The notes under the pieces: generated by a model | What the model was told of the DNA's origin: nothing | The model's database searches: none | What the model saw: only the letters and a program-made list of their open reading frames with translations | Translations under genes and position numbers: made by a program | NCBI GenBank assembly: GCA_024408505.1 | Contig: JAKSUZ010000002.1 | Coordinates: forward strand, 1,337-65,336 | Origin: Bacilli bacterium | Lineage (GTDB): Bacteria > Bacillota_I > Bacilli_A > RFN20 > CAG-826 | Direction of reading: 5' to 3' | DNA length: 64,000 nt | Shown here: one piece after another, positions 9,992-32,129 of the stretch | How positions within the stretch are numbered: the stretch's first letter is position 1 | Layout: every line of letters starts with the position of its first letter

Positions 9992-10073
9992 TGGTGGCCC
10001 CAAAGGGATTTGAACCCTTATGGTTTCCCGGACGATTTTGAGTCGTCTGCGTCTACCGTTCCGCCATGGGGCC
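9992..10073 (-). tRNA. tRNA-Leu (anticodon CAA), CCA encoded
   Basis: Reverse complement is GGCCCCATGGCGGAACGGTAGACGCAGACGACTCAAAATCGTCCGGGAAACCATAAGGGTTCAAATCCCTTTGGGGCCACCA. It folds as a cloverleaf with anticodon loop CTCAAAA and a long variable arm. Confidence 0.9.
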
Positions 10074-10079
10074 ATCTAA

Positions 10080-10156
10080 TGGTGCGCTCGATGAGATTTA
10101 AACTCATGACCTTAACCTTCGGAGGGTTACACTCTATTCAGCTGAGCTACGAGCGC
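10080..10156 (-). tRNA. tRNA-Arg (anticodon CCG), CCA encoded
   Basis: Reverse complement is GCGCTCGTAGCTCAGCTGAATAGAGTGTAACCCTCCGAAGGTTAAGGTCATGAGTTTAAATCTCATCGAGCGCACCA. Anticodon stem TAACC/GGTTA, loop CTCCGAA. Confidence 0.9.
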
Positions 10157-10161
10157 GTACT

Positions 10162-10243
10162 TGGTGCAGCTATTGAGATTTGAACTCAAACGGTTTCCCA
10201 CTAGATTCTGACTCTAGCGCGTCTACCATTCCGCCATAGCTGC
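10162..10243 (-). tRNA. tRNA-Leu (anticodon CAG), CCA encoded
   Basis: Reverse complement is GCAGCTATGGCGGAATGGTAGACGCGCTAGAGTCAGAATCTAGTGGGAAACCGTTTGAGTTCAAATCTCAATAGCTGCACCA. Type II tRNA with a long variable arm. Anticodon loop GTCAGAA has an unusual G at position 32. Confidence 0.85.
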
Positions 10244-15592: not shown

Positions 15593-15669
15593 TGGTGACC
15601 CGTATGGGGTTCGAACCCATGAATGCAAGATTGAAAATCTTGTGAGTTAAGCCTCTTCTCCAACGGGCC
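15593..15669 (-). tRNA. tRNA-Glu (anticodon UUC), CCA encoded
   Basis: Reverse complement is GGCCCGTTGGAGAAGAGGCTTAACTCACAAGATTTTCAATCTTGCATTCATGGGTTCGAACCCCATACGGGTCACCA. Anticodon stem CAAGA/TCTTG, loop TTTTCAA. Confidence 0.85.
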
Positions 15670-15675
15670 AGATAG

Positions 15676-15751
15676 TGGCGCCCACCGTAGGACTTGAACC
15701 TATAACCTATCGGTTAACAGCCGATTGCTCTAACCATTGAGCTAGGTGGGC
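15676..15751 (-). tRNA. tRNA-Asn (anticodon GUU), CCA encoded
   Basis: Reverse complement is GCCCACCTAGCTCAATGGTTAGAGCAATCGGCTGTTAACCGATAGGTTATAGGTTCAAGTCCTACGGTGGGCGCCA. Anticodon loop CTGTTAA. Confidence 0.9.
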
Positions 15752-25358: not shown

Positions 25359-26602
25359 AGCTTCTTCGCCCAATTCCCGTTTTTAAATATTTGAACCTTT
25401 TTGCCATCGCGCGTAGTGGCGACAATGTTTAAATCTTTATTACCAATCATAAAGTCAATATGGATATTACTACAGTTAATGCCACGCTTAATAAGTTCTT
25501 CTTTCTTTAATTTTCTTAAGGCTGGTTTATAGGTTGTTTCAATCGATGAGCCGAATGCTAAATGGCATGCAGCGTTTTCATCAATTAAAGTATTGTAATA
25601 AACCATTTTAGTGTTATTAACTTCTGAATCATAAGGCACTAAAGCCACTTCGCCTAAATAATGCGAAGCATCTTCGGTATTAATTAATCTTTTTAAAAGT
25701 TGTTCACCTTTCTTCGCCTTCACTTCGACAATTCTTCCTTTATGGAAACGAATAGAAAAATCTTTCATTAATTGACCATCTCTTGATAATGGTTTAGTGG
25801 AATAAACAATACCTTCGGTCACCAATCGATCGGGAGTGGTAAAACATTCCACGGCTGGCATATTCGGATTATAGGGTGGATTACCTAAAGAATCATGTGC
25901 GCCACCACAGAAAGTAACATCTTTATGAACACCAACGATTAAATCCGTACCATTCTTACTTGTATAGTGAAGAGTCTTAATATGAAGAGAATCAAGCCAC
26001 TTCGCTCTAGCTCTAATTTCTTTATTATATTTTTGCCAATTCTTAATTGGATCACCTTTAAGTCGACAACAAATAATAATTTTCTCCCACATTTTCATAA
26101 GCGCTTCTTTTTCGCTTAGTTTTGGGAAAAGAACTTTCGCCCATTCTTTACCAGGAACTGCGGCTAAACACCAAGGTGTTTCCACCATTCTCATCTTTTC
26201 GCGATAAGGCGCTCTTTCTTTTAAATGTGCTTTCTTAACATCCGCCACTTTAACTGGATCAATTCCTTCCATCCAGTATGGTGATTCGCTTTCAAGTACC
26301 ACTAACGGAACTTTTTCATCGGCTTCAAATTTAAAACGCGCAATCTCAGGAGAATAAACATTCATTAATTCTTCTTTACTGGTGTGCTTATAAATAGTTC
26401 TAAATACTGGGCGATATAGCCAAGTAACTTCTACGCGTCTAGCGCCTCGATTATAAAGTTCTTCAACGACGTAAGTAACAAATTCCGGATCATCTAAATC
26501 GGCTTGAACTTGGCATATTCGACCTTTGCAATCGTTGATACCAACAACTGCAATAAGTTTTGCGTATTTCTTCTTATAGATGGTTAATTCTTTCTCGGTC
26601 AT
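25355..26602 (-). CDS. Aminopeptidase, M29 (AmpS/PepS) family, copy 1
   Basis: Same family motifs as copy 2. 4-nt overlap with the upstream ThyX-like gene. Confidence 0.85.
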   Translation of the reverse strand: MTEKELTIYKKKYAKLIAVVGINDCKGRICQVQADLDDPEFVTYVVEELYNRGARRVEVTWLYRPVFRTIYKHTSKEELMNVYSPEIARFKFEADEKVPLVVLESESPYWMEGIDPVKVADVKKAHLKERAPYREKMRMVETPWCLAAVPGKEWAKVLFPKLSEKEALMKMWEKIIICCRLKGDPIKNWQKYNKEIRARAKWLDSLHIKTLHYTSKNGTDLIVGVHKDVTFCGGAHDSLGNPPYNPNMPAVECFTTPDRLVTEGIVYSTKPLSRDGQLMKDFSIRFHKGRIVEVKAKKGEQLLKRLINTEDASHYLGEVALVPYDSEVNNTKMVYYNTLIDENAACHLAFGSSIETTYKPALRKLKKEELIKRGINCSNIHIDFMIGNKDLNIVATTRDGKKVQIFKNGNWAKKL

Positions 26603-27192
26603 AGTTTATCTACACCAGTTAACTCCACAAAATGCGGTAAGCTTTCGCACCACTTACAAAATACATGCCATTCGCTTAATTTATGATGGCGTCTTTGTAA
26701 ATACATCGTTTTTAATTGTTGATAATTAGTAGTCATGGTCGCACCTAAACAGAAACCACTTGGAAGGGTTGCAACAAGTTCTCTCCATTTCGCAGTTCTA
26801 TTTGGATCAGTTAATTCCATCTTGAGCACTTCATCCGCTTTTTCTTGTGCGATTTGAATTACTCTTGGATCCGTTTCTTTTACGCATTGATCTCCTACTT
26901 TAAATTTAAGAAGACAGTGCATGGTGGATTGAGATGATACAAAATCAAACCAATGATATCTTTGGGCTTGTTTCCACCAATACAAAGGTGCAGTAACATC
27001 TAAATGCACTAAAATGCCCTTTAGATAATTATCGTGACCCTCACCATTACGCGCTCCGCCAAGCTTAGCACCCCGCACAAAATCTTTTCCATCACATGGA
27101 CTATTGTCGATTTCGGTGCGCATAGGATTACCACTCGCCTTCACCGCTCTTTCTAATCCATAAACATAACTGTTTTTAATGTTAAATTCCAT
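26599..27192 (-). CDS. ThyX-fold protein lacking the canonical ThyX catalytic motif
   Basis: GHDNYLKGILVHLDVTAPLYWWKQAQRYHWFDFVSSQSTMH aligns by eye to the ThyX segment [41 protein letters not shown]. The RHRxxSxxxxSxR residues are replaced. Confidence 0.55.
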   Translation of the reverse strand: MEFNIKNSYVYGLERAVKASGNPMRTEIDNSPCDGKDFVRGAKLGGARNGEGHDNYLKGILVHLDVTAPLYWWKQAQRYHWFDFVSSQSTMHCLLKFKVGDQCVKETDPRVIQIAQEKADEVLKMELTDPNRTAKWRELVATLPSGFCLGATMTTNYQQLKTMYLQRRHHKLSEWHVFCKWCESLPHFVELTGVDKL

Positions 27193-27973: not shown

Positions 27974-28035
27974 AGTTAGTATTATATAACAAAAAAACTA
28001 TCATAAAGATAGTTTTATTAATAATAACTAGTTAA

Positions 28036-28341
28036 TTAAAGAACGTTAATTAAAGTAGTAATCGCCATCGCTAACTGAGTTGGCTGATCAGGATCAGGTT
28101 TTGGTTCTGGTGCTGGTTGAATGGCGCTAATTAAAATTGCTAGGAAGAAGAAAACAATGGCAAAACCAAAGGTTAACCAAGTAATTACTCTTTCGCTACC
28201 TCTTTCTTTAGTCTTAGCAAAAACGTTAAGTCCACCACCAGTAATGGCACCAGAAGCACCTTCTGATTTACCACCTTGGAGCAAACTTAAAACAATAATG
28301 ATTAATGCTATAACTAGAAAGATGTAATCATACCATTGCAT
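28036..28341 (-). CDS. secG: Preprotein translocase subunit SecG
   Basis: Two TM helices flank LLQGGKSEGASGAITGGG. It carries an extra Pro-rich C-terminal tail. Confidence 0.8.
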   Translation of the reverse strand: MQWYDYIFLVIALIIIVLSLLQGGKSEGASGAITGGGLNVFAKTKERGSERVITWLTFGFAIVFFFLAILISAIQPAPEPKPDPDQPTQLAMAITTLINVL

Positions 28342-28457
28342 AATTTATCTCGCCTTAATATCTTCGCATAATTAACTAATTATGCAAGTTAATAGTTTTA
28401 TATCAAAAAATATTGTTATTTCATATAAATTATTATATAATTTATATGGAGTTAAAT

Positions 28458-28646
28458 ATGCGTGATCCGAAACGAATACCAATAATATTAAAAGAAATCG
28501 AAAAAATTTGGAATGGCTCTCCTGATTTAAGGCTAGGACAACTTTTATGCAATGTTTTAAGAGACCCTGCTCTTTATTATGTTGAGGATGAAAAATTAAT
28601 TGAGTATCTAAAAATGTATTATTGCGGATCAGAAATACAAAATTAA
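28458..28646 (+). CDS. Small conserved protein (YihD/DUF1040-like pattern, unverified)
   Basis: GGAG RBS 6 nt before ATG 28458. Pattern IEKIWNGSPDLRLGQLLCNV...DEKLIEYLK. Confidence 0.5.
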   Translation: MRDPKRIPIILKEIEKIWNGSPDLRLGQLLCNVLRDPALYYVEDEKLIEYLKMYYCGSEIQN

Positions 28647-29330
28647 ATGATTTATATTACAGGCGATACACACGGCGATATTGATTTTAATAAACTTGAA
28701 AGGCTAAAAGAAAAGAAATTAACTTACAAGGATACTTTAGTTATTCTTGGTGATTGTGGAATTTGTTGGTCAATTAAAGAAACTACTTATCTATTAGAAC
28801 TATATCGTTCGTTAAGATGTACCATCATTTTTCTTGATGGCAATCACGAAAATTTTGATATCCTTGAATCCTTACCAGTAGTTGAACATTGCGGTGCATT
28901 AATGCATAGTGTAGATAAACATATCTACCATGTAATGCGTGGAGAAATAATGAACATTGAGGGAATAACTTTTCTTTGTATAGGCGGAGCGCATTCAATT
29001 GACATTATGTGGCGGGTCCCAGGTATATCGTGGTGGCCAAGAGAAAATATTGAAGAACGAGATATCAATAACGCCAAAAAGAAACTTAGAAAATATAACA
29101 ATCAAGTCGATTTTGTTTTAACTCACTGTGTAGATTCATTAACTGTAACTAAAATCCTTAAATTTGAAAAAGATAGTTCAACCGATCAATTAAAGTTTAT
29201 TGATAGAACAGTTAAATATAAATACTGGTTATTTGGTCATTATCATTATGATTTTTGGCTAAACAAAAAGAAATTATGTATGTACCAAGACATCTATCAA
29301 ATCAATAAAGAAAAATTAATAAAAATATAG
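28647..29330 (+). CDS. Metallophosphoesterase (calcineurin-like)
   Basis: ITGDTHGD, ILGDCG, DGNHEN, GGAHS, LTHC and GHYH metal-ligand motifs occur in the canonical order. Confidence 0.8.
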   Translation: MIYITGDTHGDIDFNKLERLKEKKLTYKDTLVILGDCGICWSIKETTYLLELYRSLRCTIIFLDGNHENFDILESLPVVEHCGALMHSVDKHIYHVMRGEIMNIEGITFLCIGGAHSIDIMWRVPGISWWPRENIEERDINNAKKKLRKYNNQVDFVLTHCVDSLTVTKILKFEKDSSTDQLKFIDRTVKYKYWLFGHYHYDFWLNKKKLCMYQDIYQINKEKLIKI

Positions 29331-29341
29331 ATGACATTTTA

Positions 29342-29350
29342 TGTTATAAT
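29342..29350 (+). promoter_or_regulatory. Extended -10 promoter element (TGTTATAAT)
   Basis: Perfect TGnTATAAT, 12 nt after the stop of the upstream gene. The only + strand feature downstream is the repeat-containing unit ending in a terminator. Confidence 0.5.
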
Positions 29351-29375
29351 AATAATGCAATCGAAAGGTTGCGCA

Positions 29376-29456
29376 TTGCCGTTAGTCGAGATACGGCTAA
29401 TAAAAGCTCGATGAAAAATCTTGCCGTTAGTCGAGATACGGGGTATAAAAGCTCGA
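29376..29456 (+). repeat. Tandem direct repeat, 2 x 36 nt with a 45-nt period
   Basis: 29376-29411 is TTGCCGTTAGTCGAGATACGGCTAATAAAAGCTCGA. 29421-29456 is TTGCCGTTAGTCGAGATACGGGGTATAAAAGCTCGA. They match at 33 of 36 positions. Confidence 0.9.
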
Positions 29457-29467
29457 CTTAACAATTT

Positions 29468-29492
29468 CGTTCTCACATCGAGAACGTTTTTT
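29468..29492 (+). terminator. Rho-independent terminator
   Basis: CGTTCTC-ACATC-GAGAACG followed by TTTTTTG. Confidence 0.8.
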
Positions 29493-29515
29493 GTTAATAT
29501 ATAAGTTATGCAAGG

Positions 29516-30163
29516 CTAATTCTTTTTTGCTAAATCTACGTAGTAACGAATAATACCAAAATCAAATTCCGCAAAAGGAGTCTTACTAGTCAATTCAACA
29601 TCAATTGTATTATCTTTCGCTATAATCTTAAATCTTTGAAGGTTCATGGCGGTAGGTGCGCTCATCGCGGCTCTTACTACGAAATCGAAATTAGTCGGTT
29701 TACTCCCTTCAACTTTAGTTAATTTATCAATGTCTTTATTTTTGTGTGGATGACCCTCATTCGCTCCATAGCCAAAGGCTAGTGCGCATTGAATTGTTTG
29801 ATCATCCTTTTCAAACATGCGCTTTTTATATGATGCTCCAACATAGCACGTTGCAATGCCCATTTCATGAAGCTTAAGCATAATCTTCGCACTATAGTAT
29901 CCAGCTTCAACTGGATCATCGTGATAGAAAACTATGATATTTTGACATCCTTCCATCGTATGACGAGCGATGATTGAAGTAAATGCTTCTGGTTTATCAA
30001 AGAAGGCTTCAAAATGCGTTCCGTGTTGACGATTAATTTCATCAATCATATCAGTAATTTGGACTCGTTTCTCATCTTCGATGCGACGATCAACATAGCT
30101 TCGCACTGAATGTCTACTTTCTAAGAATTCAACTAAATTTTTCATAAGATTCTCCTTATTCAT
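29516..30163 (-). CDS. Nitroreductase-family protein
   Basis: RHSVRSY motif near the N-terminus and nitroreductase-like length. Overlaps the uvrB stop by 8 nt. Confidence 0.7.
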
Positions 30164-32129
30164 TATCGGCTTTTAATTCTAATAATATATCGCGTAATTC
30201 CGCTGCTCTTTCAAAGTTATATTCTTTCGCGGCTTGTCGCATTTCTTTTTCAATTTGTTTCATTTGTGCGGTTAATTCAGATTTAGATTTCTTACCTTTC
30301 TTAGTGAATTTAGTTAAATCACTTTCTTTATTAGAGATTGGTAAACGAATTTCTTTAATAATGGTTTCAGGGATAATTCCATTATCTTTGTTATATTTTT
30401 CTTGAATCGCTCGTCTACGATTAGTTTCCGCAATGGCTTCTTTCATCGAATCAGTCATATGATCAGCGTACATAATAACTTGACCGTTTTTATTTCTCGC
30501 TGTTCGACCAATAATTTGAATTAAGCTTCTCGTGCTTCTTAGGAATCCTTCTTTATCCGCATCAAGAATACAAATTAAAGATACTTCAGGAATATCTAAG
30601 CCCTCACGAAGAAGGTTAATGCCGACTAAGATATCGTATTTACCTTTTCTTAGTTCATAAATAATTGCGCTTCTTTCTAAAGTTTTAGTCTCATTATGTA
30701 AATAAGTAACTTTATAGCCTCGATCTTTTAAATAAGCAGTTAAATCTTCCGCCATCTTAATCGTTAAAGTAACAATCATTACTCTTTCTTTATTTTTAAT
30801 ACGCTTATTAACTTCACTAATGATGTCATCAATTTGACCCATCGTTTTTCTTACTTCAACTTTAGGATCAAGTAAACCGGTTGGGCGAATAATTTGCTCT
30901 ACGACTTTATTATTAGCTCTCGCTAATTCATAGTCTCCAGGGGTTGCACTGGTGCAGATTGTTTGCGGCATTACACTTTCAAATTCTTCAAAATTAAGTG
31001 GACGGTTATCAAGCGCACTAGGAAGACGGAAGCCGTATTCCACTAATACTTCTTTTCGACTTCGATCGCCATTATACATCCCTCTAACTTGAGGAATAGA
31101 AACATGCGACTCATCAATCACTAACATAAAGTCTTTTGGGAAATAATCAATTAAGTTAAATGGTCTTTCACCCGCTTTACGTCCATCAATATGTCTAGAA
31201 TAGTTTTCAATTCCTTTACACATTCCGAATTCAAGCATGCTTTCAATATCTTGACGTGTTCTCATATCAAGTCGTTCTGCTTCTAGCAATTTGCCATGTT
31301 TCTTAAAATATTTAAGACGATCATCTAATTCTTCTTTAATAGAAGTAGTTGCACGTTTAATTCTTTCGCGAGTAGAAGCGTGGTCATATGCCGGGAAGAT
31401 TGGATAGGTTTTAAATGAACCTCTTATTTCTCCAGTTAACGGATCAACTTCTTCAATCTTTTCAATCTCATCACCAAAGCAATCAATCCGAATTACAAAA
31501 TCGCGCGAATGAACGGGCGCGATTTCAATAATGTCTCCACGGTTACGGAAAGTTCCAGGCGCTAATTCAAGATTATTTCTAGTGTATTGAGCATCCACTA
31601 GTTGTTTATAAAAGTCTTGGCGGTTAATTTCTTCACCAACTCTAATTTCAAACACTAAACGACGATATTCATCTGGGTCAGTTAATCCATAAATCGAAGC
31701 CACTGATGCTACTACAATCGTATCGCGTCTTTCTAAGATTGAATTAATCGCACTAGTTCTAAGCATTTCGATTTCATCATTCATGACTGCGTTTTTATCA
31801 ATATAGGTATCAGTGCTCGGAAGATATGCTTCTGGTTGATAAAAATCGAAATTAGACACGAAATACTCTACTCGGTTATTAGGGAACAGTTCTTTAAATT
31901 CACCATATAATTGACCCGCAAGGGTTTTATTATGCACTAAAACTAATGTTGGTCTTTGGACTTTTTCAATTACATTAGCAATGGTAAAAGTTTTACCTGT
32001 ACCGGTTGCGCCAAGTAATACTTGAACTTGCTTTTTCTTTTTTAATCCATCAACCAAAGATGCAATCGCTTCTGGTTGATCACCAGTCGGTTTATAATTC
32101 GAAACAATTTTAAATTTTTGTTCACTCAT
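30156..32129 (-). CDS. uvrB: Excinuclease ABC subunit B
   Basis: [10 protein letters not shown] Walker A, DESH box, helicase motifs and a C-terminal UVR domain (FERAAELRD). Confidence 0.95.

What the first reader, a model, noticed from the sequence alone, without database searches (positions are those of the whole stretch)
29342..29492. Orphan promoter-to-terminator unit encoding a candidate sRNA built from two tandem pseudoknot-like modules
**Transcription unit**
- A perfect extended -10 (TGTTATAAT, 29342-29350) lies 12 nt after the stop of the upstream gene.
- A strong intrinsic terminator follows about 140 nt later (29468-29492).
- The next gene is on the opposite strand, so this is not a 5' leader of any + strand CDS.

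**The two repeats**
- Two 36-nt repeats (29376-29411 and 29421-29456) match at 33 of 36 positions.
- All three differences fall in one 4-nt patch.

**Possible fold**
- Each repeat can form interleaved pairings: GCCGT with ACGG(C), and (A)GTCGAG with CTCGA(CT).
- These are joined by an A-rich linker (TAATAAAA / GTATAAAA). The result is an H-type pseudoknot topology, as seen in small ligand- or protein-binding RNAs.
- TCGAGA recurs in the 3' arm of the terminator, so alternative pairings are possible.

I could not match it to any riboswitch class I know. preQ1-I, guanidine-II/III and SAM-II were considered.
Basis: seen in the sequence. Interest (0 to 1): 0.7.

Follow-up and report, generated by a model that had tools for sequence, protein, structure and literature searches.

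The report
Orphan CptI antitoxin RNA, toxin deleted
The promoter-to-terminator unit is the RNA antitoxin gene (cptI) of a known type III toxin-antitoxin system whose toxin gene has been cleanly deleted in this genome, so it is a leftover of a known system rather than a new riboswitch or sRNA class.

Summary
The extended -10, a 5' hairpin, two 36-nt repeats (33/36, 45-nt period) and an intrinsic terminator are all at the stated coordinates.

The proposed H-type pseudoknot is also right. It has the same 6/5/2/6/2/5/9/6/4 layout as the crystallised 45-nt CptI antitoxin of Eubacterium rectale (PDB 4RMO). Covariation across CptI units from about 100 cptIN loci supports both stems.

It is not an unknown sRNA or riboswitch. 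In the closest relative (L112) the same element is followed, 27 nt after the terminator's T-run, by an intact CptN toxin gene (NCBIfam CptIN, 166.8 bits; 4RMO_A, E=6e-26) and then the same convergent nitroreductase gene. The window lacks exactly those 483 nt. Only ATGCAAG (29508-29514) of cptN remains, and no cptN is found elsewhere in the 64 kb.

The element is therefore an orphan CptI antitoxin array. Normally CptN cuts the repeats in the A-rich linker, and each pseudoknot then bridges and inactivates toxin monomers. Here the RNA has no partner in cis.

The modules are 82/82 identical to relatives whose flanking gene is only 84-91% identical. This could mean recent toxin loss or retained function; I cannot tell which.

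Verdict: a new member of a known kind, of modest interest.

The parts
29342..29350 (+). Extended -10 promoter element TGTTATAAT of cptI. There is no convincing -35.
   Evidence: Read in the sequence. A TGn-extended -10 is kept in relatives: TGCTATAAT in L112, TGCTACAAT in L002/L007, TGTTAAAAT in L008. The sigma-70 scan found no two-hexamer promoter here.
29357..29372 (+). 5' hairpin GCAAUC-GAAA-GGUUGC, starting at about the expected transcription start. It is probably a 5'-end stabiliser.
   Evidence: It is predicted in both the MFE and centroid folds. The stem is identical in L002, L007, L008 and L112. An analogous 5' hairpin precedes the repeats in most other cptIN loci.
29372..29416 (+). 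CptI unit 1. S1 is 29378-82 with 29393-97; L1 is 29383-84; S2 is 29385-90 with 29407-12; L2 is 29398-29406 (UAAUAAAAG); the 3' tail is GAAA (29413-16). No cleavage-type A-rich linker lies on its 5' side.
   Evidence: Architecture scan, layout comparison with CptI_Er, covariation, and a match to the independent covariance model at 29386-29411 (19.0 bits, E=0.0036).
29413..29422 (+). A-rich linker GAAA^AAUCUU. By register with CptI_Er (UUGA^AAGUUU, scissile A45), the predicted CptN cleavage site is after A29416.
   Evidence: The position is inferred from identical segment lengths with the crystallised unit. The covariance model aligns the family linker CAAAU to 29415-29419. Cleavage itself was not tested.
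29417..29461 (+). CptI unit 2, a complete 45-nt unit: AAUCUU GCCGU UA GUCGAG AU ACGGG GUAUAAAAG CUCGAC UUAA. S1 is 29423-27 with 29438-42 (4 bp plus a G.G mismatch); S2 is 29430-35 with 29452-57; L2 is 29443-51.
   Evidence: The 6/5/2/6/2/5/9/6/4 layout is the same as CptI_Er, with 27/45 identity. The covariance model gives a full-length match at 29415-29459 (17.9 bits, E=0.007).
29468..29492 (+). Rho-independent terminator. In intact type III loci it separates the antitoxin repeats from the toxin gene and so sets the antitoxin:toxin ratio.
   Evidence: Found by the terminator scan. In L008 the stem changes in a compensatory way (CGTTCC/GGAACG), and the loop varies among relatives.
29508..29515 (+). 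Remnant of the toxin gene: ATGCAAG, the first 7 nt of cptN, plus one junction base (G29515). The 483 nt corresponding to L112:527-1009 are missing.
   Evidence: blastn shows window 28988-29514 = L112 1-526 and window 29516-30147 = L112 1010-1641. The L112 sequence is. tblastn of CptN against the whole window gives only noise.
29516..30163 (-). Convergent TM1586-type nitroreductase gene. It is a neighbour, not part of the system, and it marks the far edge of the deletion.
   Evidence: Pfam PF14512, E=9e-52. The same gene lies downstream of intact cptN in L111/L112 and is absent in L002.

Best explanation
**What it is**
The element is the cptI gene, the RNA antitoxin of a cptIN type III toxin-antitoxin locus. 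In this genome the partner toxin gene cptN has been lost through a 483-bp deletion.

**How intact loci work** (established for E. rectale CptIN; PMC4627078, PMC3401426)
- One promoter transcribes the tandem repeats.
- Most transcripts stop at the terminator, so the antitoxin is in excess. Read-through transcripts produce CptN.
- CptN is an endoribonuclease. It cuts the repeat RNA after a specific A in the A-rich linker.
- Each 45-nt H-type pseudoknot (S1, S2, and an A-rich L2 packed into the S1 minor groove) stays bound. It bridges two CptN monomers in an inactive 2:2 ring.

**What happens here**
The promoter, 5' hairpin, two pseudoknot units, one clear linker site and the terminator are all intact, but no toxin is encoded in cis. 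The predicted product is an unprocessed RNA of about 135 nt (roughly 29357-29492) with no partner. It is most likely a recent evolutionary remnant.

**Shown versus inferred**
- Shown: sequence anatomy, orthology, the deletion, and stem covariation.
- Inferred: transcription, the cleavage position, and lack of current function.
For: **The orthologous locus carries the toxin**
- L112 and L111 have the same upstream metallophosphoesterase, the same element and the same downstream nitroreductase, with a 161-aa ORF (P0121) between the terminator and the nitroreductase gene.
- P0121 matches NCBIfam NF047359, 'type III toxin-antitoxin system CptIN family toxin', at 166.8 bits against a cutoff of 90.
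- P0121 also matches PDB 4RMO_A, 'CptN Toxin', at E=6e-26 over residues 4-157 of 161.
- L007 and L008 carry the same RNA followed by the same toxin type.

**The toxin is missing here**
- The window lacks exactly L112:527-1009 and keeps ATGCAAG.
- No CptN homolog is found anywhere in the 64 kb.

**The repeats fit the family**
- The period is 45 nt with about 1.9 copies. Published cptIN values are 40-48 nt and 1.9-3.4 copies.
- The unit layout is identical to CptI_Er. This includes the 9-nt L2 (GUAUAAAAG versus AUAUAAAUG) with the kink U at position 4 and a terminal G.

**The stems covary**
- In 51 distinct units, 10 of 11 pairs show changes on both sides. 98.9% of cells are paired, against 26-36% in slid registers.
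- In a set chosen without reference to pairing, 42 of 43 units form 11/11 pairs, 7 of 11 pairs covary, and 0/500 shuffles reach the observed covariation score.

**An independent model finds the modules**
- A covariance model built only from other lineages' CptI units ranks the two modules first and second in the whole window.
Against: - No experiment shows transcription, processing or toxin binding for this RNA.
- The covariance-model E-values are modest (0.004 and 0.007).
- Only one clear A-rich linker site exists. The site after unit 2 is degenerate (UUAA^CAAU), and there is none before unit 1.
- Only 64 kb of the genome could be searched, so a cognate cptN elsewhere is not excluded.
- The deletion rests on a single assembly. 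The one read-based contig that overlaps (L001) ends inside unit 1.
- The modules are perfectly conserved (82/82) while flanking DNA is 84-91% identical. This is unexpected for a long-dead relic, although it is compatible with a recent deletion.
Confidence: 0.9

Rival explanations
1. The orphan CptI is kept by selection as a stand-alone antitoxin. It would neutralise a cognate CptN encoded elsewhere in the genome, or CptN arriving on a mobile element or phage (an anti-addiction or immunity role). The identity of the RNA is the same as in the best explanation; the difference is that it would be functional rather than a relic.
For: - Modules plus linker are 82/82 identical to L112 and L002, while the adjacent phosphoesterase 3' region is 90.8% and 83.7% identical.
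- The promoter, 5' hairpin and terminator are all intact in the window.
- The toxin shows a different lesion in several lineages with this RNA subtype, while the RNA stays intact: full deletion in the window, and an internal deletion in L002.
- Phage pseudo-ToxI shows that stand-alone type III antitoxins can work in trans (PMC5086642).
- cptIN loci do occur on mobile elements and viral contigs.
Against: - CptI antitoxins are highly specific for their own toxin, so a partner would have to be nearly identical to P0121. None is in the window.
- Searches for this RNA subtype in IMG/VR, phage and plasmid collections found nothing.
- The conservation could date entirely from before a recent deletion.
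- The L007 and L008 frameshifts lie in A-homopolymers and may be assembly errors.
Confidence: 0.2
2. It is a tandem ligand-binding riboswitch or regulatory sRNA. The pseudoknots would control termination, and therefore antisense read-through into the convergent nitroreductase gene.
For: - The topology resembles preQ1-I and SAM-II type pseudoknots with an A-rich loop.
- In this window a terminator follows the modules and a convergent gene lies beyond it.
Against: - No Rfam family matches, even at E<=10.
- Across about 100 loci the RNA is linked to cptN, not to a nitroreductase.
- L002 has the element but no nitroreductase.
- The TCGAGA alternative pairing is not conserved.
- The homologous RNA has been crystallised as a protein-bound antitoxin.
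Confidence: 0.02
3. It encodes a small repeat protein on the minus strand: the ORF 29339-29476, 45 aa, with the repeat RAFIxRISTNG.
For: - The 45-nt period is a multiple of 3.
- The ORF stays open in L002 and L007.
Against: - No ribosome-binding site precedes it, and its GTG start lies inside the terminator stem.
- L008 has a 1-nt insertion in unit 2 that breaks the frame.
- Family-wide periods are 44-49 nt, mostly 46, which is incompatible with coding.
- The substitutions are compensatory in RNA stems rather than codon-patterned.
Confidence: 0.01

Closest known systems
CptI antitoxin of CptIN from Eubacterium rectale (PDB 4RMO; Rao et al. 2015, PMC4627078)
   Same: - The unit is 45 nt with the same segment layout: 5' tail 6, S1 5, L1 2, S2 6, junction AU, S1' 5, L2 9, S2' 6, 3' tail 4.
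- L2 is A-rich, with a U at position 4 and a terminal G.
- The A-rich linker has a scissile A.
- There are about 2 repeats.
- The locus grammar is promoter, repeats, terminator, toxin.
- The orthologous toxin P0121 aligns to CptN_Er over its full length.
   Different: - Sequence identity to CptI_Er is only 27/45.
- S1 and S2 have different sequences, through compensatory changes.
- L1 is UA rather than UG.
- The first unit lacks a 5' linker site.
- In this window the toxin gene is absent.
cptIN loci with truncated toxins but full repeats and terminator (Bryantella formatexigens, Lachnospiraceae 9_1_43BFAA and others; Blower et al. 2012, PMC3401426)
   Same: The antitoxin array and terminator are intact while the toxin has decayed. 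L002 in this study, with its internal cptN deletion, is of this type.
   Different: Here the toxin ORF is removed entirely, leaving 7 nt, rather than being shortened to 45-101 aa.
ToxI of ToxIN (Pectobacterium atrosepticum) and antiQ of AbiQ
   Same: These are also type III systems. Tandem-repeat RNA is processed by its own toxin into pseudoknots that inhibit that toxin, with a terminator between the repeats and the toxin gene.
   Different: - ToxI units are about 36 nt, have a triplex core and form a 3:3 hexamer.
- ToxN is a different sequence family. The orthologous toxin here is called by the CptIN model, and the toxin ORFs of the L007 and L008 loci gave no significant Pfam match (P0121 itself was not scanned against Pfam).
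Phage pseudo-ToxI (stand-alone antitoxin mimic; reviewed in PMC5086642)
   Same: It is a type III antitoxin-like repeat RNA that exists without a toxin gene in cis.
   Different: It is phage-encoded and selected as an anti-defence. The present copy is chromosomal, sits at the ancestral locus and arose by deletion of the toxin.

Membership tests
cptIN type III toxin-antitoxin system (CptI RNA) | Tandem direct repeats of 40-48 nt in 1.9-3.4 copies (Blower 2012, Table 2) | tested here: met
   The period is 45 nt. There are two 36-nt cores at 33/36, plus one linker, giving about 1.9 units.
cptIN type III toxin-antitoxin system (CptI RNA) | A promoter upstream of the repeats and a Rho-independent terminator between the repeats and the toxin gene | tested here: met
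   The extended -10 is at 29342-50 and the terminator at 29468-92. This is sequence-level evidence only; transcription was not measured.
cptIN type III toxin-antitoxin system (CptI RNA) | The repeat unit folds as an H-type pseudoknot: two stems, a short L1 and a long A-rich L2 | tested here: met
   The layout is collinear with CptI_Er. 10 of 11 pairs covary in A3. In the set chosen without reference to pairing, 42 of 43 units are fully paired and 7 of 11 pairs covary.
cptIN type III toxin-antitoxin system (CptI RNA) | Sequence and structure similarity to CptI units of other cptIN loci | tested here: met
   Covariance model R1, built without any window-type sequence, ranks the two modules first and second in the 64-kb window at 19.0 and 17.9 bits (E=0.0036 and 0.007). 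The significance is modest.
cptIN type III toxin-antitoxin system (complete locus) | A CptN-family endoribonuclease gene immediately downstream of the terminator | tested here: not met
   In the window only ATGCAAG remains, and no CptN is found in the 64 kb. The feature is met in the orthologous locus L112: P0121 matches NF047359 at 166.8 bits and 4RMO_A at E=6e-26.
cptIN type III toxin-antitoxin system (complete locus) | CptN cleaves the repeat RNA after a specific A, leaving a 2',3'-cyclic phosphate, and the RNA neutralises the toxin | not testable with these tools
   The cut site after A29416 is inferred by register only.
Known riboswitch and RNA families in Rfam 15 (including preQ1-I, SAM-II and guanidine-III) | A match to the family covariance model | tested here: not met
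   Nothing reached the gathering score in the window except tRNAs. At E<=10 over 29300-29530 there were only spurious hits to the promoter and terminator.
toxIN (ToxI/ToxN) type III family | The associated toxin belongs to the ToxN/AbiQ sequence family | tested here: not met
   The toxin ORFs of the L007 and L008 loci gave no significant Pfam match and no toxin-family match in PADLOC. P0121 is called by the CptIN-specific NCBIfam model.

The most novel reading that the evidence does not exclude
The toxin-less CptI is maintained by selection as a stand-alone 'vaccine' RNA. It would disarm a cognate CptN delivered by incoming mobile elements or phages, or a second copy elsewhere. Repeated toxin loss with perfect antitoxin retention in this Bacilli lineage would then reflect domestication of a type III antitoxin as an anti-addiction module.
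Probability: 0.12. Interest if true: 0.55.

Novelty: new member of a known kind. Interest (0 to 1): 0.25.

Why it matters
**Practical value**
- It removes a false lead. A well-formed orphan tandem-pseudoknot RNA turns out to be a type III antitoxin, not a new riboswitch.
- CptI was not matched by any Rfam 15 model, and the toxin ORFs scanned against Pfam and PADLOC gave no toxin-family match. Automated annotation will therefore leave such loci, and especially toxin-less ones, unexplained.

**Biological value**
- It documents a clean case of toxin excision with the antitoxin gene left intact, alongside a sister locus that still has the toxin.
- It extends the crystallographic CptI pseudoknot architecture to a divergent subfamily through compensatory changes in both stems.

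If the orphan proved functional, it would be an example of an RNA anti-addiction module.

Tried and rejected
**Searches that found nothing**
- Rfam at the gathering score and at E<=10 gave no relevant family.
- Pfam and PADLOC scans of the downstream ORFs in L007 and L008 gave no useful match. Identification came from PDB sequence search and NCBIfam instead.
- blastn of the element against the phage and plasmid collections, and a pattern scan of IMG/VR for this RNA subtype, found nothing.
- tblastn of CptN against the window found no second toxin.

**Hits and ideas discarded**
- The genome pattern hit in Enterococcus raffinosus (L009) is a chance match inside a coding region.
- Synteny through more distant phosphoesterase homologs (L003-L006) did not carry the element.
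- A riboswitch or antiterminator built on the TCGAGA repeat in the terminator was rejected, because that sequence is not conserved.
- The minus-strand 45-aa ORF was rejected because of the frame-breaking indel in L008 and the family periods that are not multiples of 3.
- A 19-aa plus-strand ORF starting at ATG 29355 was rejected on reading the sequence: it begins at or before the expected transcription start, has no ribosome-binding site, and the region is explained by RNA covariation.

Full report
**1. Observation**

- TGTTATAAT lies at 29342-29350, 11 nt after the TAG stop of a 227-aa metallophosphoesterase ORF.
- Two 36-nt direct repeats lie at 29376-29411 and 29421-29456. They match at 33/36, with a 45-nt start-to-start spacing.
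- The three differences are consecutive: CTA at 29397-99 versus GGT at 29442-44.
- The shared 19-mer occurs twice in the window, against 0.00 expected by chance.
- The only terminator-like site in 28300-30300 is a 7-bp stem at 29468-29486 followed by T6.
- The next ORF is a convergent TM1586-type nitroreductase at 29516-30163 on the minus strand.
- A 5' hairpin at 29357-29372 is predicted in both the MFE and centroid folds.
- No Rfam family matches, either at the gathering score or at E<=10.

**2. Relatives**

The upstream phosphoesterase placed the window in an uncultured 'Bacilli bacterium' assembly.
- A syntenic MAG contig (L002; phosphoesterase 84% identical at the protein level) carries a nearly identical element, but has no nitroreductase.
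- A degenerate pattern scan of 185,579 species genomes found the motif in only three more contigs. These were L007, L008 and L010 (the same contig as L002). A fourth hit, inside an Enterococcus coding region, is a chance match.

In L007 and L008 the terminator is followed, 21 nt after its T-run, by an ORF beginning MQEGKFYFIKD.
- Pfam and PADLOC did not recognise this ORF.
- PDB sequence search matched it to 4RMO_A, 'CptN Toxin', at E=1e-21.
- A homolog search produced P0121, an intact 161-aa version.
- P0121 matches NCBIfam NF047359, 'type III toxin-antitoxin system CptIN family toxin', at 166.8 bits against a cutoff of 90. It also aligns to CptN_Er over residues 4-157 at E=6e-26.

**3. The deletion**

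P0121 is encoded on contigs L111 and L112. Their gene order is phosphoesterase, then the element, then cptN, then the convergent nitroreductase.

| Window | L112 | Identity |
|---|---|---|
| 28988-29514 | 1-526 | 91.9% |
| 29516-30147 | 1010-1641 | 82.9% |

The window therefore lacks exactly L112:527-1009, which is 483 nt running from the third codon of cptN to 4 nt past its stop. It keeps ATGCAAG at 29508-29514 plus one junction base. tblastn of the toxin against all 64 kb gives only noise.

Other relatives also show damaged toxin genes.
- L002 has an internal cptN deletion.
- L007 and L008 have apparent frameshifts. These lie in A-homopolymers (8 versus 6 A in L007 versus L002), so they may be assembly errors.

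**4. The RNA**

Published cptIN loci have repeats of 40-48 nt in 1.9-3.4 copies, with a terminator before the toxin gene. Loci with truncated toxins but full repeats have already been noted (PMC3401426).

The crystallised CptI_Er is a 45-nt H-type pseudoknot. Its L2 is A-rich (A27-G35) with a kink at U30, and A45 is the scissile base (PMC4627078). I recovered its sequence from the published primer and compared it with window unit 2.

| Segment | 5' tail | S1 | L1 | S2 | junction | S1' | L2 | S2' | 3' tail |
|---|---|---|---|---|---|---|---|---|---|
| Length (nt) | 6 | 5 | 2 | 6 | 2 | 5 | 9 | 6 | 4 |
| CptI_Er | AAGUUU | ACCAC | UG | ACCGAU | AU | GUGGU | AUAUAAAUG | GUCGGG | UUGA |
| Window 29417-29461 | AAUCUU | GCCGU | UA | GUCGAG | AU | ACGGG | GUAUAAAAG | CUCGAC | UUAA |

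The segment lengths are identical and 27 of 45 bases match. By register, the cut would fall after A29416, in GAAA^AAUC.

**5. Covariation**

Using an alignment of 19 CptN homologs, I fetched 80 metagenomic and 20 viral-contig cptN loci. Nearly all show a promoter, a 5' hairpin, about two repeats (mostly 46 nt) and a terminator upstream of cptN.

| Set | Units | Cells paired | Pairs changed on both sides | Control |
|---|---|---|---|---|
| A3 | 51 distinct | 98.9% | 10 of 11 | 26-36% paired in slid registers |
| A4 | 43 distinct | 99.8% | 7 of 11 | 0/500 shuffles reach the covariation score |

- The A3 units were picked partly by their ability to pair, so that result is biased.
- The A4 units were delimited only by the linker motif CAAAT recurring at 46 nt, without reference to pairing. 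In this set 42 of 43 form 11/11 pairs in the fixed register, whereas shuffled cores form 1-7.
- A covariance model built from A4 contains no window-type sequence. Scanned over the whole window with filters off, it ranks the two modules first and second, at 19.0 and 17.9 bits (E=0.0036 and 0.007). The second match is full length.

**6. Interpretation**

The element is a cptI antitoxin gene that has lost its cptN partner. The riboswitch or novel-sRNA reading is not, and the terminator TCGAGA pairing is not conserved.

The minus-strand 45-aa ORF is excluded by three observations:
- a frame-breaking insertion in L008;
- repeat periods across the family that are not multiples of 3;
- stem covariation.

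**7. Open point**

Modules plus linker (82 nt) are identical between the window, L112 and L002. Over the same comparisons the adjacent phosphoesterase 3' region is only 90.8% and 83.7% identical. This shows strong constraint on the RNA during the divergence of these lineages. It cannot date the toxin loss.

A recent relic is my preferred reading. A retained trans-acting antitoxin remains possible, although CptI-CptN pairing is highly specific. This RNA subtype was also not found in the phage, plasmid or IMG/VR collections.

**8. Verdict**

This is a new, toxin-less member of a known kind. Interest is modest.

Noticed in passing
L113:1501-2205 (protein P0123; NCBI GCA_036830845.1): The annotated 234-aa CptN homolog appears to start too early. 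Its N-terminal extension translates the CptI repeats and the terminator. The real start is probably the ATG near L113:1622 (ATGAAAGAGAATAATTTT). The locus sits between a phage-type integrase and MobL/lysozyme-like genes, so it is on a mobile element.
   Followed up: partly
L091-L110 (IMG/VR viral contigs): Twenty cptN loci lie on contigs classified as viral. The 2012 survey found cptIN only on chromosomes. I did not check whether these are prophage-borne.
   Followed up: no
L007:1040-1060, L002 near 3925, L008 near 610-620: The apparent cptN frameshifts sit in A/T homopolymers (GCAAAAAAAAG in L007 versus GCAAAAAAG in L002; 7 A are needed to stay in frame). They could be assembly errors or genuine slippage-prone sites that switch the toxin off.
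   Followed up: partly
window 26599-27192 (-): This 197-aa ORF lies immediately downstream of folD and overlaps its end by 11 nt. It has no Pfam, NCBIfam or PDB sequence match, yet it is conserved at the same position in L002. Its function is unknown.
   Followed up: partly
window 28413-29330 (+): A 77-aa ORF with no family match and the metallophosphoesterase form a plus-strand islet, together with cptI, among minus-strand genes (secG, folD, uvrB). GC skew flips sign in 28001-30000. This may be an inserted module. The window-type cptIN subtype does not always travel with the phosphoesterase: at L008 the nearest downstream gene has a UvrC-like N-terminus by eye.
   Followed up: no
window 9995-10243 and 15596-15751 (-): There are two tRNA gene clusters, of three and two tRNAs.
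   Followed up: no
L007:1184-1663 (-): In MAG342 only the C-terminal 159 aa of UvrB follow the cptIN locus, and an unrelated 593-aa ORF comes next. A second uvrB-like match lies at L007:3539-3778. This may be a rearrangement or a chimeric MAG contig.
   Followed up: no
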